Below are positions 2 to 9,894 of a stretch of 64,000 nucleotides of DNA, one piece after another; position 1 is the stretch's first letter; each line of letters starts with the position of its first letter. Source of the stretch: a virus. Its lineage: Duplodnaviria > Heunggongvirae > Uroviricota > Caudoviricetes. Both the position numbers and the translations under genes were made by a program. The notes under the pieces were generated by a model that was not told the origin of the DNA, made no database searches, and saw only the letters and a program-made list of their open reading frames with translations. The DNA is taken from IMG/VR virus record IMGVR_UViG_3300042890_004094; one strand, given 5' to 3'.

Positions 2-112
2 CCTGATCAAGTCAATAAAAGTACAGATGGAATGCTCACAGTAAATTACATTGAAGTTCTAGTTGCAAAGATACAGGAACTGGAGAATAGAATAAAACAA
101 TTGGAGAAATAA
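2..112 (+). CDS. C-terminal 36 codons of a gene that starts left of the window (partial)
   Basis: Open frame from position 2 translating ...IQELENRIKQLEK, ending TAA at 110-112 that overlaps the next ATG (TAATG). Confidence 0.4.
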   Translation, partial: PDQVNKSTDGMLTVNYIEVLVAKIQELENRIKQLEK

Positions 113-2028
113 TGGCTTGGATAGATCTTGCAGATAATCAAATGGTAAGCTTTACAGATGCACAAGGTGGTGGTTTTACACTACTTTCAGGTCAAAGTTC
201 GCTGAACTCAAACCAGTGTATGACTAAGGCTGATGCTTTAGGAAAGTATGACTTAGTTACTGCTAGTATGAGTGCATATCAGGACAATCAATTAGTTCCT
301 AAAATTACATGGGTTGCAAATTTGACAAACGGTTTTTGGGAATTAATAATTGATGTCACTAATCCCGGACAAAAATTTGGATTTAACATACCAACTGGTG
401 GATCACCTAGTATTAATATTGATTGGGGAGATACTAATACGTCAAATGTTACAAGTATAGGATTTGTAGAAAATACTTATGCTACACCGGGTACTTATTC
501 AGTAAAAACTTCCGGAAGTGCGTCTAGTATTAGTATTGCTTTAGTAACCGGTAATTGTGGACCATTGGTATTAAGTACATCTAAAATATCTGGAATAAGT
601 GGTTTGGGATCACTGCCAGAGTTATTCAAAGGATGTACTAATTTAACAAGTATTCCTTCAGATTTATTTAGTGATCTTACTGCGGTTCAAAATTTTTATG
701 GAACGTTTGTGGGTTGTACATCTTTAACTAGCATTCCTGGAAACCTATTTACTAACAATGTAAATGCTCTCCTTTTTAATTATACATTCTGGAATTGTAC
801 AGGTTTAACTGGTAGTATACCTGCAGGTTTATTTGATAATTGTCCGTCAGTAAATTCGTTCCAAGCCACATTCTATAATTGTACAGGTTTAACTGGTAGT
901 ATACCTGCAGGTTTATTTGATAATTGTCCGCTTGTTACAAGATTTGATCAAACATTCTCTAATTGTTCAGATTTAACTGGTATACCTACTGGTTTATTTG
1001 ATAATAATGTACTTGTGGAACTTTTTGTTTTGACATTTGCTTATTGTACATCTTTAACTAGTATACCTTCAGGTTTATTTGATAATTGCCCGGCTGTTAC
1101 AATGTTTTCACAAACATTCGCTGGTACAGGTTTAACTGGTAGTATACCTGTCGATTTATTTGATAATAATGTAAACGTTTACACTTTTTCTGGTGCATTC
1201 GCGCAGTGTGTATCTTTAACTAGCATACCTTCAGGTTTATTTGATACTAATTCAAATGTACTCGATTTTAGTTTTTTATTCAATGGTTGTTTCTCATTAG
1301 ATAGCATACCTGGGGGTTTATTTGATAATAATGAACTTGTTACAAATTTTTCTGGTGTATTTCAAAATTGTACATCTTTAACTAGCATCCCTGTGGGCTT
1401 ATTTGATAATAATGTACTTGTGGACAATTTTCAACAAGCATTCTATACTTGTTCAGATTTAACTGGAAGTATACCAACAGGTTTATTTGATAATAATGAA
1501 CTTGTTACAAATTTTTCTGCGACATTCAGGGATTGTACATCTTTAACTAGTATACCTACAGGTTTATTTGATAATAATGAACTTGTTATAAATTTTAGTT
1601 ATACATTTAATAACTGTGCTTCTTTAACTAGTATACCTGCGGGATTATTTGATAATAATGTAAATGTTACAACATTCCTAGCGATATTCTCAAGTTGTGT
1701 AAATTTGACTACAGTTCCTAGTAATTTATTTGTACCACTTTCTTCTTCTTCCATTAATTTTAATAGTGTATTTAGAGATTGCCGTAGCTTGGTACAGACT
1801 CCTGATATATTTGGTACTTCATATTCTACAACGTTCTTAAATAAAAATGTAAACTTCGGATCGGCATTTGAATTAGATAACTCTTACTTGGGTGCTACTA
1901 TTGGAGTAGCACCCGAATTATGGTCATTTGATTATGGTACCGGTTCTGCTACTAAAACTGATTGTTGGCAAGGTCATAGTACATCTTCCGTATCTAATTA
2001 TGCGTCAATACCAGGAGTATGGACATAG
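112..2028 (+). CDS. BspA-type leucine-rich-repeat protein
   Basis: 638-aa ORF with about 16 tandem ~23-aa units of the form C-T-S-L-T-S-I-P-x-G-L-F-D-N-N; near-identical 69-nt DNA repeats, e.g. 799-849 vs 868-918. Confidence 0.8.
   Translation: MAWIDLADNQMVSFTDAQGGGFTLLSGQSSLNSNQCMTKADALGKYDLVTASMSAYQDNQLVPKITWVANLTNGFWELIIDVTNPGQKFGFNIPTGGSPSINIDWGDTNTSNVTSIGFVENTYATPGTYSVKTSGSASSISIALVTGNCGPLVLSTSKISGISGLGSLPELFKGCTNLTSIPSDLFSDLTAVQNFYGTFVGCTSLTSIPGNLFTNNVNALLFNYTFWNCTGLTGSIPAGLFDNCPSVNSFQATFYNCTGLTGSIPAGLFDNCPLVTRFDQTFSNCSDLTGIPTGLFDNNVLVELFVLTFAYCTSLTSIPSGLFDNCPAVTMFSQTFAGTGLTGSIPVDLFDNNVNVYTFSGAFAQCVSLTSIPSGLFDTNSNVLDFSFLFNGCFSLDSIPGGLFDNNELVTNFSGVFQNCTSLTSIPVGLFDNNVLVDNFQQAFYTCSDLTGSIPTGLFDNNELVTNFSATFRDCTSLTSIPTGLFDNNELVINFSYTFNNCASLTSIPAGLFDNNVNVTTFLAIFSSCVNLTTVPSNLFVPLSSSSINFNSVFRDCRSLVQTPDIFGTSYSTTFLNKNVNFGSAFELDNSYLGATIGVAPELWSFDYGTGSATKTDCWQGHSTSSVSNYASIPGVWT
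649..1750 (+). repeat. Tandem ~69-bp coding repeats (LRR units) inside the 112..2028 gene
   Basis: Repeated tgtac/agatttaactggtagtatacctgcaggtttatttgataat... units visible by eye. Confidence 0.7.
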
Positions 2029-2037
2029 AAATTGTTG

Positions 2038-2122
2038 AAGAGAGTAAGGGAATCGAACCCTACCCAGTTTCCCGGGCGTCTCGCTTAGCAGGCGGACCCT
2101 ATCACCATCAAGGTTTACTCTC
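2038..2122 (-). tRNA. tRNA-Ser(GCT), type II (long variable arm)
   Basis: Reverse complement GGAGAGT...GGGTTCGATTCCC...ACTCTCT; anticodon loop CTGCTAA; variable-arm hairpin CCCGG-GAAA-CTGGG. Confidence 0.7.
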
Positions 2123-2133
2123 CATATTTTGTA

Positions 2134-2216
2134 GTGAGCAAGGGAATCGAACCCTATACATCTAAACGTACGCACTGCTTTCCAGGCAGACCCTATCACC
2201 ATCAAGGATTACTCAC
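2134..2216 (-). tRNA. tRNA-Ser(GGA), type II
   Basis: D-arm identical to previous tRNA; anticodon loop CTGGAAA; T-arm GGGTTCGATTCCC. Confidence 0.6.
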
Positions 2217-2226
2217 TATGTTGTTG

Positions 2227-2313
2227 CGGAGAAAACAGGGCTCGAACCTGCACACCAGTTTCCCGATACCGGTTTTCAAGACCGGGGCGATACCAATTAC
2301 GCTTTACTTCTCC
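2227..2313 (-). tRNA. tRNA-Ser(TGA), type II
   Basis: Reverse complement GGAGAAG...CCGGT-CTTGAAA-ACCGG...GGTTCGAGCCC...TTTCTCC. Confidence 0.7.
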
Positions 2314-2324
2314 AAGTAATTTAG

Positions 2325-2408
2325 AAGAGAGTGTGGGACTCGAACCCACAAAGGTATTACCCTTTACTAGTTTTCAAAACTAGGCCTTCATCCAGCCAGT
2401 TACTCTCC
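2325..2408 (-). tRNA. tRNA-Ser(TGA) second copy, type II
   Basis: Reverse complement GGAGAGT...CTAGT-TTTGAAA-ACTAG...GGGTTCGAGTCCCAC...ACTCTCT. Confidence 0.6.
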
Positions 2409-2417
2409 ATATATTTG

Positions 2418-2489
2418 TGATTCCAGAGGGAATCGAACCCCCACCTGATCGTTCGTAGCGACCTATCCTATCCGTTAAACGATGGAACC
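2418..2489 (-). tRNA. tRNA-Arg(ACG)
   Basis: Reverse complement GGTTCCA...GGTCG-CTACGAA-CGATC...GGGGGTTCGATTCCC...TGGAATC. Confidence 0.7.
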
Positions 2490-2496
2490 AATTAAA

Positions 2497-2536
2497 AACA
2501 AAAAACCCACAAACTTTGAAGTCTGTGGGTTTCATA
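2497..2536. terminator. Hairpin with flanking T/A runs (factor-independent terminator candidate; minus-strand reading gives stem then TTTTTTGTTTTT)
   Basis: aacccacaaac-tttgaa-gtctgtgggtt preceded on the plus strand by aaaaacaaaaaa. Confidence 0.5.
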
Positions 2537-2553
2537 CTAATTTTTTATATCAA

Positions 2554-2631
2554 TTATGAACACAACAGAACCTCCCTCAAATTACTTGAGCGACTAGACG
2601 AACTTGACGATGTTGTGATAATTGTTTTCAT
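2554..2631 (-). CDS. Micro-ORF (25 aa, MKTIITTSSSSSSRSSNLREVLLCS) directly fused to the conserved promoter-like motif; may instead be a small RNA
   Basis: ATG immediately follows TTTTAATATATAAATAAT on the minus strand; terminated by the hairpin at 2497-2536; a related copy lies at 3695-3805. Confidence 0.25.
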   Translation of the reverse strand: MKTIITTSSSSSSRSSNLREVLLCS

Positions 2632-2636
2632 ATTAT

Positions 2637-2653
2637 TTATATATTAAAATTTT
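2637..2653 (-). promoter_or_regulatory. Conserved AT-rich promoter-like motif (minus-strand reading AAAATTTTAATATATAA)
   Basis: Member of a TTTTAATATATA family that recurs upstream of at least 10 genes in this window. Confidence 0.45.
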
Positions 2654-2675
2654 ATTCTTTGTTTTTATTTATTTG

Positions 2676-2809
2676 ATAGAAAGGTGGGACTCGAACCCAC
2701 AACCACGGCTTTAACAGAGCGAAGTAACTTATTTCATTGCTACTAAGAGTTTCTTAGAGAAAGACTGACTAAGTATGATTACGTGCTCTACCAATTGAGC
2801 TACTTTCTA
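2676..2809 (-). tRNA. tRNA-like gene interrupted by a ~58-nt insertion (possible intron); anticodon region reads TCATAC (possibly CAT)
   Basis: Canonical 5' half TAGAAAG-TA-GCTC-AATTGGTA-GAGC and canonical 3' half GTGGG-TTCGAGT-CCCAC-CTTTCTA form a perfect 7-bp acceptor, but are separated by about 58 extra nt; no 3' anticodon-stem partner found at the canonical place. Confidence 0.5.
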
Positions 2810-2813
2810 TTTG

Positions 2814-2884
2814 CACGTCGACTAGGGCTCGAACCTAGAACATTGGTTTTGGAGACCAAGATGATACCATTTCACTATCGACGT
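2814..2884 (-). tRNA. tRNA-Trp(CCA)
   Basis: Reverse complement ACGTCGA...TTGGT-CTCCAAA-ACCAA...CTAGGTTCGAGCCCTAG-TCGACGT. Confidence 0.7.
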
Positions 2885-2891
2885 GTTTTGG

Positions 2892-2965
2892 GTTGACAGA
2901 CGGGACTTGAACCCGCAATCCCTTGGTTCACAACCAAGTGCTTTAACCAATTAAGCTACCATCAA
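2892..2965 (-). tRNA. tRNA-His(GTG)
   Basis: Reverse complement TTGATGG...CTTGG-TTGTGAA-CCAAG...GCGGGTTCAAGTCCCGT-CTGTCAA, discriminator C. Confidence 0.65.
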
Positions 2966-2967
2966 AG

Positions 2968-3042
2968 TGACCCCGGTGAGACTCGAACTCACAACCCCCG
3001 CATTAAAAGTGCGGTGCTCTAAACCAATTGAGCTACGAAGTC
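2968..3042 (-). tRNA. tRNA-Lys(TTT)
   Basis: Reverse complement GACTTCG-TAGCTCAATTGG...CCGCA-CTTTTAA-TGCGG...GTGAGTTCGAGTCTCAC-CGGGGTC. Confidence 0.7.
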
Positions 3043-3052
3043 ATTATTATTG

Positions 3053-3124
3053 TGCGGACTGACGGAATCGAACCGACCTCTTAGGGACTTCACTCCTACG
3101 CTAAACCGTCTCAGCTAAATCCGC
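3053..3124 (-). tRNA. tRNA, anticodon uncertain (loop GTGAAGT, possibly GAA/Phe-like; imperfect stems)
   Basis: Reverse complement GCGGATT...GGTTCGATTCC...AGTCCGC has a perfect acceptor and T-loop; the anticodon stem has a mismatch. Confidence 0.5.
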
Positions 3125-3130
3125 AATTTT

Positions 3131-3205
3131 GGGTGAAAGACGGGGATCGAACCCGCGACAACTTGAACCACAATCAAGCACTCTACCACTGAGCTACAAT
3201 CACCA
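3131..3205 (-). tRNA. tRNA-His(GTG)-like second copy (G-1 and C73 present, two T-T mismatches in acceptor stem; possibly degenerate)
   Basis: Reverse complement G-GTGATTG-TAGCTCAGTGGTAGAG...CTTGA-TTGTGGT-TCAAG...GCGGGTTCGATCCCCGT-CTTTCAC-C. Confidence 0.5.
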
Positions 3206-3211
3206 TGTTTG

Positions 3212-3284
3212 TGGACCCTCAGGGAATCGAGCCCTGTCCTTTGGATTTTCAGTCCAACGTACGCACCAGCTATACGAAAGGTCC
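3212..3284 (-). tRNA. tRNA-Phe(GAA)
   Basis: Reverse complement GGACCTT...TTGGA-CTGAAAA-TCCAA...CAGGGCTCGATTCCCTG-AGGGTCC. Confidence 0.65.
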
Positions 3285-3294
3285 ATTATATTTG

Positions 3295-3367
3295 CACAAG
3301 CCAAGGGAGTCGAACCCTTTCCATCCGAGGTTTTGGAGACCTGGTGCATACCATTATGCTGACCTGT
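3295..3367 (-). tRNA. tRNA-Trp(CCA)-like second copy (one mismatched pair in anticodon stem)
   Basis: Reverse complement ACAGGTC...CAGGT-CTCCAAA-ACCTC...AAGGGTTCGACTCCCTT-GGCTTGT; D-loop AATGGTAT shared with the other Trp gene. Confidence 0.5.
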
Positions 3368-3376
3368 ATATATTTG

Positions 3377-3469
3377 AAGAAAGAAGAGTATCGAAACTCT
3401 TAGGGGATATCTCCACGACTAGCCTACCTCTCGGATTCGAACCGAGACCTCTTCAACCTGACTTTCTTT
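3377..3469 (-). tRNA. Aberrant 93-nt tRNA-like element (candidate Ser-CGA type II tRNA with unusually long variable region, or a tRNA remnant)
   Basis: Perfect 7-bp acceptor AAGAAAG/CTTTCTT; internal CTCGG-TTCGAAT-CCGAG stem-loop and a second T-arm-like AAGAG-TTTCGATA-CTCTT; does not fold canonically. Confidence 0.35.
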
Positions 3470-3471
3470 TG

Positions 3472-3544
3472 TGATCCCGGTGGGGCTCGAACCCACAACC
3501 TTCTGATTAAAAGTCAGAAGCTCCACCAATTGAGCTACGAAATC
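3472..3544 (-). tRNA. tRNA-Lys(TTT) second copy
   Basis: Reverse complement GATTTCG-TAGCTCAATTGGTGGAGC...TCTGA-CTTTTAA-TCAGA...GTGGGTTCGAGCCCCAC-CGGGATC. Confidence 0.65.
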
Positions 3545-3549
3545 ATTAG

Positions 3550-3622
3550 TTCCCCCGCCGGGAGTCGAACCCGGCCCCATAGGTTAAAAGCCTATTGCCT
3601 ACTACCAGTTTGCTACGAGGGA
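3550..3622 (-). tRNA. tRNA-Lys(TTT) third copy
   Basis: Reverse complement TCCCTCG...ATAGG-CTTTTAA-CCTAT...GGCCGGGTTCGACTCCCGGC-GGGGGA. Confidence 0.6.
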
Positions 3623-3631
3623 TTATAAAAT

Positions 3632-3670
3632 AAAAAAACCCGAACTTTTTTATAAGTTCGGGTTTACGTT
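3632..3670. terminator. Strong hairpin with flanking A/T runs (bidirectional factor-independent terminator candidate upstream of the tRNA array)
   Basis: aaaaaaacccgaacttttttataagttcgggtttacgttt. Confidence 0.6.
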
Positions 3671-3694
3671 TATGCTTTATTCTCTTTTATGACA

Positions 3695-3805
3695 TTATCC
3701 TATAATAACATCTTCTTTTGAGAACGACATACTCATACATCCGAACTTGTGGCTAAACCACTTGAACGACTTACTAAAGCTTGTATGTTTGAAATTTGTT
3801 CTCAT
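3695..3805 (-). CDS. Micro-ORF (36 aa, MRTNFKHTSFSKSFKWFSHKFGCMSMSFSKEDVIIG), a related copy of 2554..2631; may be a small RNA
   Basis: ATG fused to TTTTAATATATATAACA on the minus strand, followed by the 3632-3670 terminator. Confidence 0.25.
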   Translation of the reverse strand: MRTNFKHTSFSKSFKWFSHKFGCMSMSFSKEDVIIG

Positions 3806-3807
3806 TG

Positions 3808-3826
3808 TTATATATATTAAAAGTTT
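3808..3826 (-). promoter_or_regulatory. Conserved promoter-like motif (minus-strand AAACTTTTAATATATATAA)
   Basis: Same motif family as 2637-2653. Confidence 0.45.
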
Positions 3827-3895
3827 ATTCTCTCTTTTTGTTTTTTTGTTATTTTTATAGTACAAAAGTAATAAAAGTTTACTTATCTACCTAAT

Positions 3896-4090
3896 TTATT
3901 TTAATTTATTTTTAATTTTCTCTGCAATCTTCTCTAAACTTGATTTAGAAGTCTCTTTCTGTTTTGGAAATCTACCATGATTTCCCATACTATCATAGTC
4001 AGTACATTCATACGCACTAGGTGACGGTAGTCCACTATAGTGACAGAATTCTTCTTCACTAAGTATTTCTTTTTTATCTTCTTTTTTCAT
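3896..4090 (-). CDS. Hypothetical small protein (64 aa)
   Basis: ORF only; no recognisable motif. Confidence 0.35.
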   Translation of the reverse strand: MKKEDKKEILSEEEFCHYSGLPSPSAYECTDYDSMGNHGRFPKQKETSKSSLEKIAEKIKNKLK

Positions 4091-4140
4091 ACTATAAATA
4101 TACTACTTTATTTTATTCTACCAAACTTTAATACAAAAAA

Positions 4141-7100
4141 TTATCGTTTTAGTGTAAAATGTCCTTTATGTATTCTACCATCATTTCTGTAAGCAACGAA
4201 CCAGTAATCATTAGAAAATATCTGATTTCCATTGTAGGTTCCATCCCATCCTTGGCTAGTTGAATTAAATGATGTAATTATTTTACCATAACGATCATAA
4301 ATAATAACTTTAAAATCAGGTTCATTTTCAGAATCTTTAATTCTCCAATAATCATTATATCCATCATTATTGGGAGTAAAGAATTTGTCATAGTAAAGCA
4401 GCCAAATAACTTGACTAGTGATCCCACAATTAGCTTTATCTCTTACATAAACAGTGTATAATCCGGTAGTTAAATTATCAAAGTAGTTTTCATTTTGGTA
4501 TGTAACATTATCTAGAGAATATTCAAAGGTTCCATTACCAGATGTAATTACTGTAATAGTGTTTTCTCTAGCGGTCCAATCTGATATTTCAATACTTTCA
4601 ATAACTGGTGGTCCAGAAATGATTACATTAATACTCTGACTATTACTACAAGCCAATCCATTATAAGTATTTGTGGCGGTAACTGTTAGATTTGTTATAC
4701 CAATATCAGTAATACTAATAGATGGAGTTGTTTCACCATTAGACCAAATATAGGTAGTTGAAGACAAATTATTAGATGTAGCATCAATAATAGTAGGATT
4801 GGTTGTGCAATTCAAATAGTTTTGACTTAGATTCAAATTTGGTATTTTTCCCACAATTAAATTAAATGTTCTTAATTCATAGCAATTAGGTAAAGAGTTA
4901 AGTATAATTTTAGCATAAATAAGTTGTGGATTTATAGAAGGATTAAAACTTACTAAGTTTGTAATTTGATTAGTACCACTTTGTGCATCACTTAACGTAG
5001 TATAATAGGTTATAGTATAATTACTTACTATTTGTGTTCCTAGAATTACAGAATTCTGTTGTGATAAATTAAAAGTTTCATTATTAGTAATAATAGTTTT
5101 ACATTGAAGTAAATCACTAGGATTATTTATCAAAATAAAAGACTCAAGTATACTTACATCAAAAAATCGGTTAACTATATTACCACAATTATCTTCTATT
5201 TGAAAAAGGTAAATTGCTGGATCTAAATTAGAAAAAGTATTTGAAGTACCATTATCAAAAAAGAAAGGTAAACCATTTTTTTGTATAAGAGTATATGTCA
5301 ATGGTGCAGTTCCACTTGCCTCAACAAAAACATCTAAAGCACCGTTTGTAGAGCAAGGTAATCGATAAACATCAATAAATTCTAAAGATTCATTATAACT
5401 TAATGGTTCTAATATTTCAATACAATTTTTATCGGCATTATTTACGTCTGTAGAATTCCAGTCACTTCCATTTTGGAATGATAAAAAAGAACGAACAATT
5501 CGAAAATCGCCATTAGAACTAAAATTAAAATTGGTAGTATTGTTTATTAGGACAATTGAGTTATTTGTATTTGGAATAGTACCATCAGTATAAACTAGAT
5601 TTGTACTAGGATTTCCCCAAGTATTAGTAACCGGATCAATCAATTTTTGTAACCAAAAAGTTTCATTTGATGTTCCATTACTCACAAAGTCTAGTGCAAT
5701 ATCAAAAGAACCACAGTTAGGAACCAATGAAAAATTGGAAGAAGTGATTGTATAACCTTGTAAAATTATGTTAGTAGTATTAGTTAAGTTACATTCATCA
5801 GTTCCAATAAAAGTATAATTTCCTGCAGGAAGATTATTCATATAAAAAATACCATCAGGTGCAATGTTATAAGACACATTTAATGGAAGATTAAAATTAA
5901 ACGTACTAGGAGCTGCTGTAATAATAATAGATGTCAATTTTGAATTCAAACTTTCAATTTTAACTGCACTAGTATTCAAGTCACAACCATTTCTTATAGA
6001 ATTAGATAAACCTTTATCTACATAGGCAGGAACAACAACTGTAATAGGTGTTAAAATATCATTACAAGTATTTGTTAATTCAATTATATAATTTCCTAAC
6101 GGAACTGGATTTAATATAATTGTACCATTATTAATTAAAGAGGTTATATTATGTGGTAAAGTGAAAGGATAATCAGATGGTGCAGAGGTTACTAATCCAG
6201 TTGTGATAATATATCCGGGTATGCTTATATTTATCTTTCCTGTTGTAGTCAGACATCCATTGTGTGATCCTGTTACACTTGGAATAGGTGGTCGATTTAT
6301 TATCGTAAAAGAAATATTTTTAGTATTACCACAAGAATCTGTAATAGTAGCATCATAAGTTCCTATGGGTGTAGGTAATGTTGTATTTCCAAAAGACACA
6401 CTGTTTTGATTATAGGGACCTGGATAGGAGTCATTAAAAACTAGAGGATTAAAACCAGTTGGAAAAGAATTAAAGTTTATAGTATAAGGAGGATAAAAAT
6501 TTGAAAGATTAAATGTAAAAAAGTTTTTGTTACAATCTAAACGGGTTGTAGTGTTGGTTAGGTTTATTCCATTGTTTACAACAAAATTTGTTGAAGAATA
6601 GGTTGAATTACATGCATCAGTAATAGATATTGAGTAACTAAAAGTTTGATTAATGTAATTTGTCATGTTTTGTACCAAATTTTGTTGTGTTAAACCTCCA
6701 GAATTTAAAGTACTATTCAATATAATTGGTACACCTCCAGGTGGTAAAATAGTGTAAGTAATGTTTAACGGATAACCAATAACAGTTCCAGTTGCAGCAG
6801 TTAAGGTATTAGTAACTGAAACTAAGTTACAATTAGATAATTGAGTAATTTGAGGTTGTCCAATTGTAATACCAGTTGTGTTTTGAACGGTTGTAAAAGT
6901 TGTTACAACTCCAATTCCACAATTATCAAAAACTCTAATCTTATAAACACCGATAGGTAAATTAGAAAAAGTATTGGAACTCTGTGATGGAAACAATAAA
7001 GGTCCATTAAATATTTCATAAGAAGCAGGTGTTCCGGTCAGTGTATTTACAGTAATTGTACTTGTGTTAGAACATGCTTGATTTAAAGTTTGAATGTTAT

Positions 7101-7422
7101 AAGTTAAGGAAACAACTGAGTTTACTATTGTTACATCTTGTTGTTGCTCTGTAGTGGTTGTTCCGAAAGTTTCTCTTGCAATAACACGGTAGTCTCCTGC
7201 AACTAATCCATTGATAGTTGTAGAATTTGTTGTTGCAAATGGTGTATCTGTATTGGGTAATTTATAGATGATGTACTGAATACTTCCACCAACAATAGTA
7301 TTGGTTGTATTAAATGTTAAACTACCATTACCTGAACAAGTTTCATTGGTAGTTGCTACTGAAAGGTTGAACCCAAAACAAAATTGGGTCATAAAAAAGA
7401 TAAGATAAATTAGGCTTTTCAT
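4141..7422 (-). CDS. Large secreted Asn/Thr-rich repeat protein with N-terminal signal peptide and C-terminal type-B T9SS sorting domain (gliding-motility-associated C-terminal domain)
   Basis: N-terminus MKSLIYLIFFMTQFCFGF; C-terminus ...FFTPNNDGYNDYWRIKD...YDRYGKII...GWDGTYNG...YWFVA...; many C-x-N Ig-like repeats. Confidence 0.8.
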   Translation of the reverse strand: MKSLIYLIFFMTQFCFGFNLSVATTNETCSGNGSLTFNTTNTIVGGSIQYIIYKLPNTDTPFATTNSTTINGLVAGDYRVIARETFGTTTTEQQQDVTIVNSVVSLTYNIQTLNQACSNTSTITVNTLTGTPASYEIFNGPLLFPSQSSNTFSNLPIGVYKIRVFDNCGIGVVTTFTTVQNTTGITIGQPQITQLSNCNLVSVTNTLTAATGTVIGYPLNITYTILPPGGVPIILNSTLNSGGLTQQNLVQNMTNYINQTFSYSISITDACNSTYSSTNFVVNNGINLTNTTTRLDCNKNFFTFNLSNFYPPYTINFNSFPTGFNPLVFNDSYPGPYNQNSVSFGNTTLPTPIGTYDATITDSCGNTKNISFTIINRPPIPSVTGSHNGCLTTTGKINISIPGYIITTGLVTSAPSDYPFTLPHNITSLINNGTIILNPVPLGNYIIELTNTCNDILTPITVVVPAYVDKGLSNSIRNGCDLNTSAVKIESLNSKLTSIIITAAPSTFNFNLPLNVSYNIAPDGIFYMNNLPAGNYTFIGTDECNLTNTTNIILQGYTITSSNFSLVPNCGSFDIALDFVSNGTSNETFWLQKLIDPVTNTWGNPSTNLVYTDGTIPNTNNSIVLINNTTNFNFSSNGDFRIVRSFLSFQNGSDWNSTDVNNADKNCIEILEPLSYNESLEFIDVYRLPCSTNGALDVFVEASGTAPLTYTLIQKNGLPFFFDNGTSNTFSNLDPAIYLFQIEDNCGNIVNRFFDVSILESFILINNPSDLLQCKTIITNNETFNLSQQNSVILGTQIVSNYTITYYTTLSDAQSGTNQITNLVSFNPSINPQLIYAKIILNSLPNCYELRTFNLIVGKIPNLNLSQNYLNCTTNPTIIDATSNNLSSTTYIWSNGETTPSISITDIGITNLTVTATNTYNGLACSNSQSINVIISGPPVIESIEISDWTARENTITVITSGNGTFEYSLDNVTYQNENYFDNLTTGLYTVYVRDKANCGITSQVIWLLYYDKFFTPNNDGYNDYWRIKDSENEPDFKVIIYDRYGKIITSFNSTSQGWDGTYNGNQIFSNDYWFVAYRNDGRIHKGHFTLKR

Positions 7423-7798: not shown

Positions 7799-8002
7799 AT
7801 GCCGGCTCAATCGAAACAGCAACTAAAGTATATTTATGCAATGCGTAATAAATATAAAAACAAGAAAAGTGCTCCTAAACATATGAAGTGGGTATTTAAC
7901 AAAGATTGGACCCAAGACGTTAAAGCCAGTGGGTTACCAACCAAAGTTAAAAGTTTTCAAACTTATGTAAGTGAAAACTATGATGCTTCGACTAAGAAGT
8001 AA
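7799..8002 (+). CDS. Hypothetical small basic protein (67 aa)
   Basis: Lys-rich ORF; 3' end overlaps the convergent tyrS by 25 nt. Confidence 0.4.
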   Translation: MPAQSKQQLKYIYAMRNKYKNKKSAPKHMKWVFNKDWTQDVKASGLPTKVKSFQTYVSENYDASTKK

Positions 8003-9234
8003 CTTTTCTTACCTCTTTGTAGTATGATAAACTTATCATTTATCAAATCAACATCTGTTACGATGTAATCCTCTTCTCTTTTTATTTTATTTATTGCAAC
8101 TGAATTTTCTTTTAAAGCTCTTCTAGCTTCATTATTTGATTTTAAGAAACCTGTTTTAAATAGAATGTCTGTCATTGTAATGCCTACAAGAATTTCTTCC
8201 ATAGGAACTTTCGCTTGTGGTATTCCATTAAATACATCTAAGAATAATTCTTCATCAAGTAAGTTTAAATCTCCACCATTAAATAAAATGTTAGAAGCTT
8301 CTAGTGCTTTTTCAAACTCTTGCTGACCGTGAACCATAATAGTTATTTCTCTTGCTAATTTTTTTTGTAACAAAAATAAGTTCTTTGCTTTATTATGTTC
8401 TTCTATTAAATTATCAATAGTTTCTTTATCTAAAAATGTAAAGATTTTAATGTATTTCTCTGCATCATTATCATCGGTATTTATCCAAAATTGGTAAAAC
8501 TTGTACACAGAGGTCTTATCTTTATCTAACCATATATTTGTACCTCCTTCAGATTTTCCGAACTTAGAACCATCCGATTTAGTTAGTAAAGGACATGTCA
8601 TAGCAAATGCTTCCCTACCAGGATTCATTTTGTGAATTAGTTCAGTTCCTGTTGTAATGTTACCCCATTGATCTGAACCACCCATTTGTAATAAGCAGTT
8701 ATGTTCTTTATTTAGATGGTAGAAATCGTATCCTTGAATCAACTGGTACGTAAATTCTGTGAAAGACATTCCTTCACCTTCAATACGATTTTTCACAGAT
8801 TGTTTAGATAACATGTAATTTACAGTAATTCTTTTACCAATGTCTCTTACAAAGTCTATGAAACTAAATTTTGACATCCAATCGTAGTTATTTACTACAG
8901 GAGTATCACCTAAAAATCTTGTTAGTGTATTTCTAATACCTTCGACATTTTTATTAAGTGTTTCTTCGTCTAATAGATTTCTTTCATTTGACTTACCAGA
9001 GGGGTCACCGATCATACCAGTGGCACCTCCAACAAGTGCGATAGGATTGTGTCCAAAATTCTTCATATGTTTTAAAAGAATGATTGGAACTAAACTACCG
9101 ATATGTAGAGAATCTGACGTTGGATCAAAACCGATATAAGAGGTGGTGGCTTCTTTTAAAAGTTGAGCCTCCGTTCCTGGTATTATATCGTGTACCAACC
9201 CACGCCATTTTAATTCTTCTACTATATTTTTCAT
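7978..9234 (-). CDS. tyrS: Tyrosyl-tRNA synthetase, bacterial type
   Basis: GFDPTSDSLHIGSLVP (HIGH-region), GGATGMIGDP, GGSDQWGNIT and KFGKSEGG (KMSKS-like) motifs; C-terminal S4-like region. Confidence 0.9.
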   Translation of the reverse strand: MKNIVEELKWRGLVHDIIPGTEAQLLKEATTSYIGFDPTSDSLHIGSLVPIILLKHMKNFGHNPIALVGGATGMIGDPSGKSNERNLLDEETLNKNVEGIRNTLTRFLGDTPVVNNYDWMSKFSFIDFVRDIGKRITVNYMLSKQSVKNRIEGEGMSFTEFTYQLIQGYDFYHLNKEHNCLLQMGGSDQWGNITTGTELIHKMNPGREAFAMTCPLLTKSDGSKFGKSEGGTNIWLDKDKTSVYKFYQFWINTDDNDAEKYIKIFTFLDKETIDNLIEEHNKAKNLFLLQKKLAREITIMVHGQQEFEKALEASNILFNGGDLNLLDEELFLDVFNGIPQAKVPMEEILVGITMTDILFKTGFLKSNNEARRALKENSVAINKIKREEDYIVTDVDLINDKFIILQRGKKSYFLVEAS

Positions 9235-9638: not shown

Positions 9639-9875
9639 AATATTTATTTTTAATAATTTCTAAAAAAAATACCTTTTTCATCTATTTTCTATATTTAATA
9701 TCAAGGTAGTTCACTGTTTTTCATAAAAGGTATTAGAAAATTCATTTACCAGCTACTTACTACCATAAACACTAACTATAACTATGTGACCAAAACTTAT
9801 TCTATAACAGGTCAGTTGTAGTAGCTCATTATTTATTGTGCAAATATACAATAAAGTTTCAATTTAAAAAATATA

Positions 9876-9894
9876 TTTTAATATATAGTTTATG
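9876..9894 (+). promoter_or_regulatory. Conserved promoter-like motif TTTTAATATATAGTTTATG fused to the start codon
   Basis: The 13-mer TATATAGTTTATG, including the ATG, is identical at 9882-9894, 28096-28108, 46307-46319 and, on the minus strand, at 11908-11920. Confidence 0.5.

What the first reader, a model, noticed from the sequence alone, without database searches (positions are those of the whole stretch)
2038..3622. Compact 16-member tRNA array with a complete serine decoding set and multiple Lys/His/Trp copies
Sixteen tRNA or tRNA-like genes sit head-to-tail on the minus strand in 1.6 kb. By hand-folding they include Ser GCT, GGA, TGA (twice) and a CGA-like element, so every Ser codon box is covered. 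There appear to be three Lys-TTT, two His-GTG, two Trp-CCA, Phe-GAA and Arg-ACG. Most lack an encoded CCA. The giant proteins in this window are Ser/Asn/Lys-rich, so the set looks tuned to the element's own codon demand. This is typical of jumbo phages and giant viruses.
Basis: partly seen in the sequence, partly recalled or inferred. Interest (0 to 1): 0.5.

Follow-up and report, generated by a model that had tools for sequence, protein, structure and literature searches.

The report
Phage tRNA operons gated by leader peptides
The tRNA gene cluster is real, and each of its two blocks sits behind a tiny gene and a transcription stop signal, with the tiny gene written mostly in the codons that the downstream tRNAs read, so this huge phage probably makes extra tRNAs only when ribosomes stall for lack of them.

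Summary
The minus-strand tRNA array at 2038-3622 is real. Fourteen tRNA genes are supported by ARAGORN and/or Rfam. Two further tRNA-like elements are not scored by either tool.

Each of the two tRNA blocks follows a short ORF plus a strong intrinsic terminator that ends 12-13 nt before the first tRNA.
- **Leader 1** (3805-3695, MRTNFKHTSFSKSFKWFSHKF...) precedes Lys, Trp, Phe and His tRNAs.
- **Leader 2** (2631-2554, MKTIITTSSSSSSRSS...) precedes Arg-ACG and four Ser tRNAs.

In each leader, a segment just after the cognate-codon run is complementary to the 5' arm of the terminator. That is the anatomy of a classical ribosome-mediated (trp/his-type) attenuator.

A scan of viral contigs with only the shared 5' motif recovered seven new leader variants (roughly three new composition types). 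Their composition again mirrors the downstream tRNAs, for example QDP leader with Gln/Asp/Pro tRNAs, and NLMTVIR leader with Asn/Leu/Met/Thr/Val/Ile/Arg tRNAs. The true leader-to-tRNA pairing beats all 3.6 million permutations.

The nearest relatives are 635-735 kb megaphage assemblies; published work on these genomes predicts Bacteroidetes hosts for huge phages over 634 kb.

Seven full-text literature searches and a term search of the huge-phage paper found no description of leader-peptide attenuation of tRNA genes. There is no experimental evidence. The "tuned to codon demand" reading is only partly supported.

The parts
3863..3870 (-). Promoter-like box TACTTTTG (Bacteroidota -7 type TAnnTTTG), 65 nt upstream of the leader-1 ATG
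   Evidence: A TAnnTTTG box lies 48-94 nt upstream of the leader ATG in 20 of 30 related units. Its role as a promoter is inferred; the consensus is from memory.
3811..3821 (-). Shared 5' motif TTTAATATATA, 5 nt before the leader-1 ATG. The same motif lies before the leader-2 ATG at about 2638-2648.
   Evidence: Seen. The same motif precedes long ORFs at 9892, 46317, 58630 and 30971, so the leaders carry the start context of real genes.
3695..3805 (-). Leader ORF 1, MRTNFKHTSFSKSFKWFSHKFGCMSMSFSKEDVIIG*. The regulatory run is codons 5-21 (3793-3743).
   Evidence: 16 of 17 codons in the run are read by tRNAs of this array (P=7e-10). It is conserved in L012, L049 and L122, with variants in L001, L002, L009, L023, L050 and L128.
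3733..3749 (-). Antiterminator 5' strand of attenuator 1 (CAAGUUCGGAUGUAUGA, codons 19-25). It is complementary to the terminator 5' arm and the bases just before it.
   Evidence: RNAduplex -13.2 kcal/mol, z=-2.8, p=0.01. It forms in the nascent-RNA fold when a ribosome is placed at codons 6-15.
3626..3665 (-). Intrinsic terminator 1: AAACCCGAACUU / AAGUUCGGGUUU, 12 bp, followed by a U tract. It ends 13 nt before the first tRNA.
3549..3622 (-). tRNA-Lys(TTT)
   Evidence: ARAGORN; Rfam 48.4 bits.
3471..3544 (-). tRNA-Lys(TTT)
   Evidence: Rfam 69.0 bits.
3376..3468 (-). Unscored tRNA-like element: outer helix AAGAAAG/CTTTCTT, hairpin CUCGG-UUCGAAU-CCGAG, hairpin AAGAG-UUUCGAUA-CUCUU. Probably a degenerate remnant.
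   Evidence: Read from the sequence. The fold is no better than shuffles. No Rfam or ARAGORN hit. No homologue in related loci. It does not align with Ser tRNAs.
3294..3367 (-). tRNA-Trp(CCA), non-canonical
   Evidence: ARAGORN only. Rfam gives only 20.7 bits to the Sec model.
3211..3284 (-). tRNA-Phe(GAA)
   Evidence: Rfam 57.1 bits.
3131..3203 (-). tRNA-His(GTG)
   Evidence: Rfam 57.4 bits.
3052..3124 (-). tRNA-Phe(GAA) with an unusual anticodon loop GUGAAGU and an A31.C39 mismatch
   Evidence: Rfam 47.0 bits. L001 carries the same GUGAAGU loop in its copy (read); its D-arm sequence, used as the search pattern, recurs in 14 viral contigs.
2967..3042 (-). tRNA-Lys(TTT)
   Evidence: Rfam 69.4 bits.
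2889..2965 (-). tRNA-His(GTG), the only gene with an encoded CCA
2813..2884 (-). tRNA-Trp(CCA)
   Evidence: Rfam 60.7 bits.
2676..2809 (-). tRNA-Asn(GTT)-like gene with a structured insertion of about 60 nt between the D arm and the anticodon arm
   Evidence: Not called by ARAGORN, even in intron mode. Homologues are in L004, L006 and L009. The RNAalifold consensus has 9 pairs with compensatory changes in the acceptor, insert arm, anticodon stem and T arm.
2554..2631 (-). Leader ORF 2, MKTIITTSSSSSSRSSNLREVLLCS*. The regulatory run is codons 8-16 (2610-2584): TCG TCA AGT TCG TCT AGT CGC TCA AGT.
   Evidence: 9 of 9 codons are read by the five downstream tRNAs (P=3.5e-10). The Arg codon is CGC, the rarest Arg codon but one (0.2 per 1000), and it is read by the downstream Arg-ACG.
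2554..2573 (-). Antiterminator 5' strand of attenuator 2 (codons 20-26 including the stop codon). It pairs with UAUGAAACCCACAGA at about 2538-2520.
   Evidence: The terminator 5' arm is 71 % paired with a ribosome at codons 8-15, and 0 % with a ribosome on the stop codon. L001 shows compensatory change: GAUUCGA/UCGAAUC instead of UCUGU/ACAGA.
2494..2533 (-). Intrinsic terminator 2: GAAACCCACAGACU / AGUUUGUGGGUUUU, 14 bp, followed by a U tract. It ends 12 nt before tRNA-Arg.
2417..2489 (-). tRNA-Arg(ACG)
   Evidence: Rfam 49.1 bits.
2324..2409 (-). tRNA-Ser(TGA)
   Evidence: Rfam tRNA 30.3 bits; Sec model 36.9 bits.
2226..2313 (-). tRNA-Ser(TGA)
   Evidence: Rfam 37.9 bits.
2131..2217 (-). tRNA-Ser(GGA)
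   Evidence: ARAGORN. Rfam gives only 36.7 bits to the Sec model, below its threshold.
2039..2122 (-). tRNA-Ser(GCT)
   Evidence: Rfam 35.2 bits. Anticodon loop CUGCUAA in the alignment. Missed by ARAGORN.

Best explanation
The locus is a tRNA transcription unit of a huge phage, probably with a Bacteroidota host. It is split into two blocks, and each block is gated by a ribosome-mediated transcription attenuator.

**Proposed order on the minus strand:** promoter-like box, leader ORF 1, terminator 1, Lys Lys (remnant) Trp Phe His Phe Lys His Trp (Asn-like), leader ORF 2, terminator 2, Arg-ACG Ser Ser Ser Ser.

**Proposed mechanism:**
1. A ribosome translates the leader while RNA polymerase moves ahead.
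2. If charged tRNAs for the leader's codon run are plentiful (Phe/Lys/His/Trp/Ser in leader 1; Ser/Arg-CGY in leader 2), the ribosome runs on over the segment that could pair with the terminator's 5' arm. In leader 2 that segment contains the stop codon. The terminator hairpin then forms and the tRNAs are not made.
3. If those tRNAs are scarce, the ribosome stalls in the run. The downstream segment stays free, pairs with the terminator's 5' arm as an antiterminator, and polymerase reads into the tRNA genes.

The products are the very tRNAs whose shortage is sensed, so this is a negative-feedback, on-demand tRNA supply.

**Shown here:** the tRNAs, the ORFs, the terminators, the complementarity, and the co-variation with tRNA identity across phages.

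**Inferred:** translation of the leaders, coupling of translation to transcription, the direction of the response, and the promoter.
For: 1. **Anatomy.** Strong terminators at 3665-3636 and 2533-2502 end 13 and 12 nt before the first tRNA of each block. That leaves no room for a promoter, so the tRNAs must be reached by read-through. Across relatives the gap is 5-25 nt in 24 of 27 units.

2. **Codon match in the window.** Leader 1 codons 5-21 are 16/17 F/K/H/W/S (P=7e-10). Leader 2 codons 8-16 are 9/9 Ser or Arg-CGC (P=3.5e-10).

3. **Rare-codon bias.** The runs prefer the phage's minor codons (TTC, AAG, CAC, TCG, AGC, CGC): 13 of 24 against 3.4 expected (P about 2.5e-6). From memory, the leu leader's use of rare CUA is a parallel.

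4. **Co-variation across phages.**
   - A K+F-only leader precedes K and F tRNAs only (L010/L011).
   - A Lys mini-leader MKTKLKYKR precedes 3-4 Lys tRNAs (L001, L002, L009).
   - A blind scan with only the shared 5' motif found QDP, NLMTVIR and NVITC (with a Leu/Arg-rich variant) leaders in front of matching tRNA sets.
   - The true pairing of 10 leader classes with 10 tRNA sets is the best of all 3,628,800 permutations.

5. **Codon-level match.** The in-run Arg is CGC/CGT where Arg-ACG follows, and AGA where Arg-TCT follows.

6. **Antiterminator.**
   - In 20 of 27 units a leader segment just 3' of the run pairs with the terminator's 5' arm better than 95 % of shuffles (median z=-2.9).
   - Terminator sequences differ between classes and the leader segment changes with them. 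Own-pair energies sum to -149 against -92 kcal/mol expected, and 0 of 200,000 random re-pairings do as well.

7. **Folding with a masked ribosome footprint** gives the expected switch for both window attenuators.

8. **Start context.** The leaders share the 5' context of bona fide long ORFs.

9. **Rfam.** The best non-tRNA hits here are His_leader and Thr_leader, below threshold.
Against: - There is no expression, ribosome-profiling or termination data of any kind.
- For the window's leader 2 taken alone, the antiterminator complementarity is not significant against shuffles (p=0.17). It rests on interrupted helices and on the compensatory change in L001.
- In leader 1 the ORF runs 12 codons past the antiterminator strand. 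In the simple masked model, a ribosome parked on the stop codon does not prevent the antiterminator. Termination under plenty therefore needs a kinetic argument: the ribosome is over or just past that strand while the terminator is being made.
- In the nascent-RNA folds the antiterminator also forms with no ribosome at all. The untranslated state therefore does not default to termination as it does in trp.
- Two units (L014, L018) match their tRNAs only weakly.
- The leader classes used in the permutation tests are related to one another, so the P values overstate independence.
- ARAGORN misses some tRNAs in these arrays, which blurs the block definitions.
Confidence: 0.8

Rival explanations
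1. An ordinary, constitutively expressed phage tRNA array. On this reading the short ORFs are chance ORFs in AT-rich spacers and the hairpins merely end upstream transcripts.
For: tRNA arrays are common in large phages. Hundreds of phage records share individual tRNAs with this region. AT-rich DNA throws up many short ORFs.
Against: The ORFs are conserved in frame across divergent contigs. Their composition follows the downstream tRNAs. They pair specifically with their own terminators. The terminators abut the tRNAs with no room for a promoter.
Confidence: 0.04
2. The leaders act as RNA, not through translation. On this reading it is a T-box-like or other riboswitch in which the codon run binds tRNA anticodons directly and sets the terminator/antiterminator choice.
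For: The regulated output (translation capacity) and the terminator/antiterminator logic are the same as for T-boxes.
Against: No T-box or other riboswitch hit appears even at E<=10. The cognate triplets are all in one frame, defined by a conserved ATG with the start context of real genes. A stop codon sits at a fixed 19-38 nt before the terminator arm. Changes within the Ser run switch between TCN and AGY codons and so preserve the amino acid rather than the RNA sequence.
Confidence: 0.06
3. The attenuators are real but mainly serve a timing or counter-defence purpose rather than steady feedback. They would fire when the host shuts down or cleaves specific tRNAs (anticodon nucleases acting on Lys, and in other systems Arg, His, Ser and others), releasing phage replacement tRNAs only then.
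For: The mechanism is the same as in the best explanation, and the sensed set includes tRNA-Lys. From memory, tRNA-Lys is a classic anticodon-nuclease target, and phage tRNAs are reported to rescue phages from such defences. The conserved Phe tRNA has an unusual anticodon loop. The phage invests in its own aminoacylation enzyme: a TyrRS gene at 7978-9234.
Against: Nothing in the sequence distinguishes this trigger from simple supply-and-demand feedback. Leaders exist for nearly every amino acid class in relatives, which fits general homeostasis better than defence against a particular nuclease.
Confidence: 0.25

Closest known systems
Classical leader-peptide transcription attenuators of amino-acid operons (trpL, hisL, pheL, leuL, thrL, ilvL) and of the pheST synthetase operon (pheM) in Proteobacteria
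   Same: A short translated leader enriched in the codons of the sensed amino acids, followed by an intrinsic terminator. A mutually exclusive antiterminator is formed by a leader segment and the terminator's 5' arm. Multi-amino-acid sensing occurs as in thrL and ilvL. Minor codons are used in the run. Attenuator 2 has the stop codon inside the antiterminator strand, as in trp.
   Different: The genes under control are tRNA genes, so the product is the sensed molecule itself. The setting is a huge phage, probably of Bacteroidota, not a cellular operon. One leader senses up to five or seven amino acids. Two attenuators are arranged in series within one array. There is no clear 1:2 'anti-antiterminator' in the nascent folds. 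There is no sequence-family membership: Rfam His_leader scores 32.5 bits against a 49-bit threshold, and Thr_leader 23.8 against 55.
T-box riboswitches
   Same: They couple tRNA status to a terminator/antiterminator decision upstream of translation-supply genes.
   Different: T-boxes bind uncharged tRNA directly, have no ORF, have conserved Stem I and T-box motifs, and from memory are largely confined to Firmicutes. No such motif is found here.
tRNA gene clusters of large phages (T4, T5, KVP40, jumbo and huge phages)
   Same: A dense head-to-tail array with short spacers, no encoded CCA in most genes, and homing-endonuclease ORFs interspersed in relatives.
   Different: No leader-peptide attenuator is reported for those arrays as far as I could find. 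The huge-phage paper does not contain the word starts 'attenuat' or 'leader'.

Membership tests
tRNA (Rfam RF00005 / ARAGORN) | Cloverleaf scoring above the curated threshold, with an assignable anticodon | tested here: met
   12 pass the Rfam gathering score and 13 are called by ARAGORN; the union is 14. Two further elements (3468-3376 and 2809-2676) fail both tools.
Ribosome-mediated (leader-peptide) transcription attenuator | A short ORF with start and stop codons directly upstream of the regulated genes | tested here: met
   ORFs at 3805-3695 and 2631-2554. They are conserved in frame in relatives.
Ribosome-mediated (leader-peptide) transcription attenuator | A run of codons specific for the regulated pathway | tested here: met
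   16/17 and 9/9 cognate codons. The best of 3,628,800 pairings across phages. A codon-level Arg match.
Ribosome-mediated (leader-peptide) transcription attenuator | An intrinsic terminator between the leader and the regulated genes | tested here: met
   12- and 14-bp GC-containing stems plus U tracts, ending 12-13 nt before the first tRNA.
Ribosome-mediated (leader-peptide) transcription attenuator | An antiterminator pairing that excludes the terminator and co-varies with it | tested here: met
   across 14-27 units. Within the window, leader 1 has p=0.01; leader 2 has p=0.17 alone but is supported by the compensatory change in L001.
Ribosome-mediated (leader-peptide) transcription attenuator | The ribosome's position selects the fold: a stall in the run frees the antiterminator strand, and a ribosome at the end of the ORF masks it | tested here: inconclusive
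   Met for attenuator 2. For attenuator 1 the stall half is met, but the stop codon lies 12 codons beyond the strand, so masking needs a kinetic argument.
Ribosome-mediated (leader-peptide) transcription attenuator | Read-through that responds to the supply of charged tRNA in vivo or in vitro | not testable with these tools
   No expression data are available.
Rfam His_leader (RF00514) / Thr_leader (RF00506) | A score at or above the family's gathering threshold | tested here: not met
   32.5 bits against 49; 23.8 and 17.6 bits against 55. This is the same kind of device but not the same sequence family.
T-box riboswitch | Stem I specifier loop and conserved T-box sequence | tested here: not met
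   No hit at E<=10 in 1900-3800 or at the gathering score in the whole window.
Huge phage of the Mahaphage type with a Bacteroidota host | Relatedness to the 635-735 kb assemblies, plus host markers | tested here: inconclusive
   Only the tRNA region and one short stretch match, at 73-80 % identity. Supporting hints are the CHU_C domain, the TAnnTTTG boxes and phage-type TyrRS, ligase and SbcC genes. No marker-gene phylogeny was done.

The most novel reading that the evidence does not exclude
Huge phages of this clade run a general, modular 'tRNA on demand' system. Every tRNA block has its own leader peptide spelled in the codons that block decodes, so the phage measures decoding capacity codon class by codon class and tops up exactly the limiting tRNAs. 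This would be the first case of leader-peptide attenuation controlling tRNA genes, and the first direct feedback loop between codon decoding and tRNA transcription. It may double as a sensor that answers host tRNA depletion or cleavage.
Probability: 0.65. Interest if true: 0.85.

Novelty: new variant of a known kind. Interest (0 to 1): 0.8.

Why it matters
How phages regulate the many tRNAs they carry, and why they carry those particular ones, are open questions. Here the sequence itself suggests an answer that can be tested directly. The tRNA genes sit behind sensors that read out, through ribosome speed, the supply of exactly the tRNAs they encode.

- **Scope of attenuation.** It would extend the fifty-year-old attenuation paradigm from amino-acid biosynthesis and synthetase genes to tRNA genes, to phages, and to Bacteroidota-type systems.
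- **Annotation.** It would give a sequence rule for grouping tRNA genes into regulated blocks: the leader composition predicts the downstream tRNA set. The same rule could help spot divergent tRNAs that standard tools miss.
- **Engineering.** It would supply compact natural parts that report the decoding capacity of chosen codons.
- **Phage biology.** The leaders' preference for minor codons, and the inclusion of Lys, bear on the debate over whether phage tRNAs serve codon-usage matching or escape from host tRNA-targeting defences.

Tried and rejected
- **ARAGORN intron mode** did not recover either unscored element.
- **Element 3468-3376.** I tried reading it as a class-II tRNA-Ser(CGA) and as a permuted tRNA. 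It has no homologue in relatives, does not align with Ser tRNAs and folds no better than shuffles. I leave it as a probable remnant.
- **Element 2809-2676.**
  - I tried a canonical anticodon-loop intron (position 37/38) and a CAU anticodon; neither gives a paired anticodon stem.
  - The consensus fold instead places the insertion between the D and anticodon arms, with a CUGUUAA loop.
  - That fold rests on only two independent lineages.
- **Group I intron, ribozyme, tmRNA or other RNA family** for the spacers: no hits.
- **Sigma-70 promoter scan:** no better than chance, 5 found against 4.9 expected.
- **TAnnTTTG in the window as a whole:** only mildly enriched, 127 against 105±10. The promoter call rests on its conserved position before leaders.
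- **Long-range megablast of 20 kb of the window against phage records:** only a 138-nt match, so there is no close sequenced relative.
- **Region upstream of the TyrRS operon:** no Rfam hit and no stable fold.
- **Literature:** seven full-text searches and one paper look-up found no prior description. The library lacks most subscription journals, so absence is not proof.
- **Not run:** formal count of structure pairs on the Ser/Arg leader alignment. The close variants are nearly identical and only L001 is informative.

Full report
**1. The observation**

ARAGORN tRNA genes in the 64 kb window. All lie on the minus strand between 2131 and 3622. Rfam's tRNA model passes its curated threshold for 12, including 2039-2122, which ARAGORN misses. 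The alignment shows that gene's anticodon loop as CUGCUAA, so it is Ser-GCT.

The secure inventory is 14 genes: Lys-TTT x3, Trp-CCA x2, His-GTG x2, Phe-GAA x2, Arg-ACG, Ser-TGA x2, Ser-GGA and Ser-GCT. Eleven are found by both tools. Trp 3294-3367 and Ser-GGA 2131-2217 rest on ARAGORN alone.

Three of the four Ser genes score higher with the tRNA-Sec model than with the general model, though below its threshold. Their D arms are irregular.

Only His 2889-2965 encodes CCA. Most of the others are followed by CAA(A).

The one correction is that there are two Phe genes, not one.

**2. What organises the array**

On the minus strand, the two long "spacers" are not empty. Upstream of the first tRNA there is, in order:
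- a promoter-like box TACTTTTG (3870-3863);
- a 36-codon ORF (3805-3695), MRTNFKHTSFSKSFKWFSHKFGCMSMSFSKEDVIIG;
- a 12-bp terminator with a U tract (3665-3626), which ends 13 nt before tRNA-Lys.

Between the Asn-like element and tRNA-Arg there is:
- a 25-codon ORF (2631-2554), MKTIITTSSSSSSRSSNLREVLLCS;
- a 14-bp terminator (2533-2494), which ends 12 nt before tRNA-Arg.

The first leader's run (codons 5-21, FKHTSFSKSFKWFSHKF) is followed by Lys, Trp, Phe and His tRNAs. The second leader's run (codons 8-16, SSSSSSRSS) is followed by Arg-ACG and four Ser tRNAs.

Statistics against the amino-acid usage of 32 window ORFs:
- Leader 1 run: 16 of 17 codons cognate, P=7e-10.
- Leader 2 run: 9 of 9 codons cognate, P=3.5e-10.
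- Minor codons: the runs favour TTC, AAG, CAC, TCG, AGC and CGC, with 13 of 24 against 3.4 expected (P about 2.5e-6). The single Arg codon is CGC (0.2 per 1000 in the ORFs), which is read by the inosine-type Arg-ACG tRNA that follows.

**3. Related sequences**

The only similar public phage records are unannotated 635-735 kb "uncultured phage" assemblies.

LR745206.1 (L001) has a syntenic array with three such units:
- MTTNSTHKNFSKSHKWFSNQSFG... before His Phe His Phe Trp;
- MKTKLKYKR before four Lys tRNAs;
- MKTINNTSKSSSRSSS... before Arg-ACG and Ser tRNAs.

Anchoring on two conserved tRNAs brought 18 IMG/VR loci. Among them, L010 and L011 have the leader MRTVSKNIKGFKKFFKKNF, with no His or Trp, in front of Lys and Phe tRNAs only.

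I then ran a predictive test. I scanned IMG/VR with only the motif shared by both window leaders (TTTAATATATA, 4-8 nt, ATGANAAC). I kept short ORFs followed within 250 nt by a tRNA. New leader types appeared, and each one mirrors its tRNAs:

| Locus | Leader run | Downstream tRNAs |
|---|---|---|
| L085 | ...AQVQPQDQDP... | Gln Asp Pro |
| L084, L042 | ...NPQP...DLDPD... | Asp Pro |
| L031 | MKTMNLNMNMNTLTVVNNTLCIR... | Ile Asn Arg-TCT Leu Val Thr Met |
| L064, L117 | ...TVNINVITITNCVNNTT... | Asn Val Cys Thr Ile |
| L079 | ...NLNINLTLNVLCLRQR... | Arg-TCT and five Leu |

With ten classes, the true leader-to-tRNA pairing gives the highest match of all 3,628,800 permutations.

The match also holds at codon level. 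The in-run Arg is CGC/CGT where Arg-ACG follows and AGA where Arg-TCT follows.

The classes are evolutionarily related, so these P values overstate independence. The direction of the result is nonetheless clear.

**4. The switch**

In 20 of 27 units, a leader segment lying just 3' of the codon run is complementary to the 5' arm of the unit's own terminator, better than 95 % of shuffles (median z=-2.9).

The terminator sequences differ widely between classes (CCCGAAC, CCCUCAGA, CCCAGUUAGUC, CCCUAAUAGA, CCUCGAAUC, CCCGAUG and others), and the leader segment changes with them. In a cross-pairing control, own-unit duplex energies sum to -149 kcal/mol against -92 expected. None of 200,000 random re-pairings does as well.

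In the window:
- **Attenuator 1.** CAAGUUCGGA (codons 19-22) pairs with CCCGAACUU.
- **Attenuator 2.** Codons 20-26, including the stop codon, pair with UAUGAAACCCACAGA. L001 shows the compensatory version GAUUCGA/UCGAAUC.

I folded the nascent RNA up to the terminator loop with a 30-nt ribosome footprint masked. Results:
- **Attenuator 1.** The terminator 5' arm is 75 % paired in the antiterminator with the A site at codons 6-15, and 0 % at codons 19-21.
- **Attenuator 2.** The arm is 71 % paired at codons 8-15, and 0 % with the ribosome on the stop codon.

Attenuator 2 is therefore a textbook trp-type design.

Attenuator 1 needs a kinetic step. Its ORF runs 12 codons beyond the antiterminator strand, through a stable hairpin that may act as a pause or scaffold. 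That role is inference.

**5. Mechanism proposed**

A stall on the cognate run leads to the antiterminator and then to read-through into the tRNA genes. Smooth translation leads to the terminator.

Because the output is the sensed tRNAs, the loop is self-limiting. Leader 2 has no TAnnTTTG box of its own. It may therefore be an internal gate reached by read-through from block 1, which could explain the seven Ser codons in leader 1.

The shared TTTAATATATA motif also precedes long ORFs. It might itself be a phage promoter, so the independence of block 2 is unresolved.

**6. Rival explanations**

- **Chance ORFs in a constitutive array.** Excluded for practical purposes.
- **A translation-independent, T-box-like RNA sensor.**
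  - There is no such motif.
  - The cognate triplets lie in one frame set by a conserved ATG, and a stop codon sits at a fixed distance from the terminator.
  - Ser-run changes switch between the TCN and AGY boxes, which preserves the amino acid rather than the RNA sequence.
- **Counter-defence trigger (host tRNA cleavage).** This is compatible with the same device and cannot be separated from plain feedback by sequence alone.

**7. The two unscored elements**

*Element 2809-2676.* It has a 7-bp acceptor stem, a normal D arm and a normal T arm. It also has an anticodon-type hairpin with loop CUGUUAA (Asn-GTT), and a hairpin of about 60 nt inserted between the D and anticodon arms. Homologues in L004, L006 and L009 keep the architecture. 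They show nine pairs with compensatory changes, including in the insert arm and the anticodon stem. Whether it is spliced, works as a five-armed tRNA, or is inactive is unknown. L014 and L081 carry other tRNA-like genes with long internal insertions.

*Element 3468-3376.* It has an acceptor-like outer helix and two T-arm-like hairpins. It has no homologue elsewhere and no supported fold. I regard it as a remnant.

**8.

Neighbouring genes include:
- a phage-type tyrosyl-tRNA synthetase (7978-9234);
- an ORF with a CHU_C type IX secretion domain (4141-7422);
- an NAD-dependent DNA ligase;
- an SbcC-like protein.

G+C is about 28 % outside the array.

It also agrees with Al-Shayeb et al. 2020, who predict Bacteroidetes hosts for their five genomes over 634 kb (PMC7162821).

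The codon-demand idea is only partly supported. Ser, Lys and Phe are common. But Trp, His and CGN-Arg are the rarest targets, and the commonest residues (Asn, Ile, Leu, Thr) have no intact tRNA here. Relatives keep those in other arrays with their own leaders.

**9. Novelty**

The device is the classical leader-peptide attenuator. Its target (tRNA genes), its setting (huge phages) and its modular multi-amino-acid use are, as far as I could find, undescribed. Seven full-text searches and a check of the huge-phage paper found nothing. The library lacks most subscription journals.

I class it as a new variant of a known kind. I put confidence in the attenuator reading at about 0.8 and interest at 0.8. 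Everything about function remains computational.

Noticed in passing
window 2676-2809 (minus); L009 12977-13119; L004 1409-1544; L006 626-756: A tRNA-Asn(GTT)-like gene with a structured hairpin of about 60 nt inserted between the D arm and the anticodon arm. Nine pairs show compensatory changes between the window group and L009. It could be an unusual intron or an extra arm.
   Followed up: partly
L014 1870-2003; L081 3652-3786: Other tRNA-like genes with long internal insertions. The L014 gene parses by eye as Tyr-GTA, with about 48 nt inserted after position 37 and a long variable region. Interrupted tRNA genes therefore seem to recur in this phage group.
   Followed up: no
window 3376-3468 (minus): A tRNA-like remnant: an acceptor-like helix AAGAAAG/CTTTCTT around two T-arm-like hairpins. 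It is unique to this window and is not scored by any tool.
   Followed up: yes
window 9812-9829 (minus), after TATATTTG at 9841-9848: A tiny ORF, MSYYN*, with two minor Tyr codons (TAC TAC). It sits at the head of the transcript that carries a YqeY-like ORF and the tyrosyl-tRNA synthetase gene (7978-9234). It may be a Tyr leader analogous to pheM. No Rfam hit or stable fold was found in the 200 nt that follow.
   Followed up: partly
L001 3868-3940; L002 3754-3824; L009 12437-12506: A nine-codon leader, MKTK(L/R)KYKR, with four AAA codons precedes 3-4 Lys tRNAs. It is followed by a 9-10 bp hairpin that starts right after the stop codon and has no U tract. This is a different read-out from the window's attenuators.
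   Followed up: no
L001 4025-4290; L002 3825-4094; L009 12587-12853; L004 80-168; L019 (reverse strand) 263-349 and 439-527: ARAGORN-89 nt tRNAs with Lys, His or Trp anticodons. The L001 Lys-CTT gene (4204-4290), read by eye, has a class-II-like variable-arm hairpin. That is unusual for these amino acids.
   Followed up: no
window 2039-2409 (minus): Three of the four Ser tRNAs score higher with Rfam's tRNA-Sec model (36.7-40.4 bits, below its 47-bit threshold) than with the general tRNA model. Their D arms are irregular.
   Followed up: partly
window 3052-3124 (minus); also L001 3527-3599 (same anticodon loop): A conserved tRNA-Phe with anticodon loop GUGAAGU (G32, U38) and a distinctive D loop. 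The altered loop might matter for evading host nucleases; this is speculation.
   Followed up: no
window, upstream of ORF starts at 9892(+), 46317(+), 58630(-), 30971(-), and of both leaders: The motif TTTAATATATA lies 4-8 nt before the ATG of several long ORFs as well as both leaders. It may be a phage promoter giving very short 5' UTRs, or a translation-start context.
   Followed up: partly
L007 965-1405; L008 3119-3670; L009 11890-12432; L015 (reverse strand) 6327-6830; L018 (reverse strand) 4009-4326; upstream of the L013/L017 arrays: ORFs of 105-183 aa carrying HNH-type Cys/His motifs (e.g. CANCHREIH, CSNCHRIEH; read by eye, no domain search run) sit between or beside the tRNA genes in related arrays, as in the T4 and T5 tRNA regions (the latter from memory). 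None lies inside the window's array.
   Followed up: no
window 4141-7422 (minus) and 112-2028 (plus): The ORFs flanking the array carry a CHU_C type IX secretion sorting domain and DUF285 repeats respectively. These are Bacteroidota-style surface-protein features in a phage genome.
   Followed up: no
window 2039-3622 (minus), 3' flanks of the tRNAs: Eleven of the 14 tRNAs are followed by C-A-A(-A) after the discriminator base instead of CCA. This is a regular spacer signature that may guide 3' processing.
   Followed up: partly
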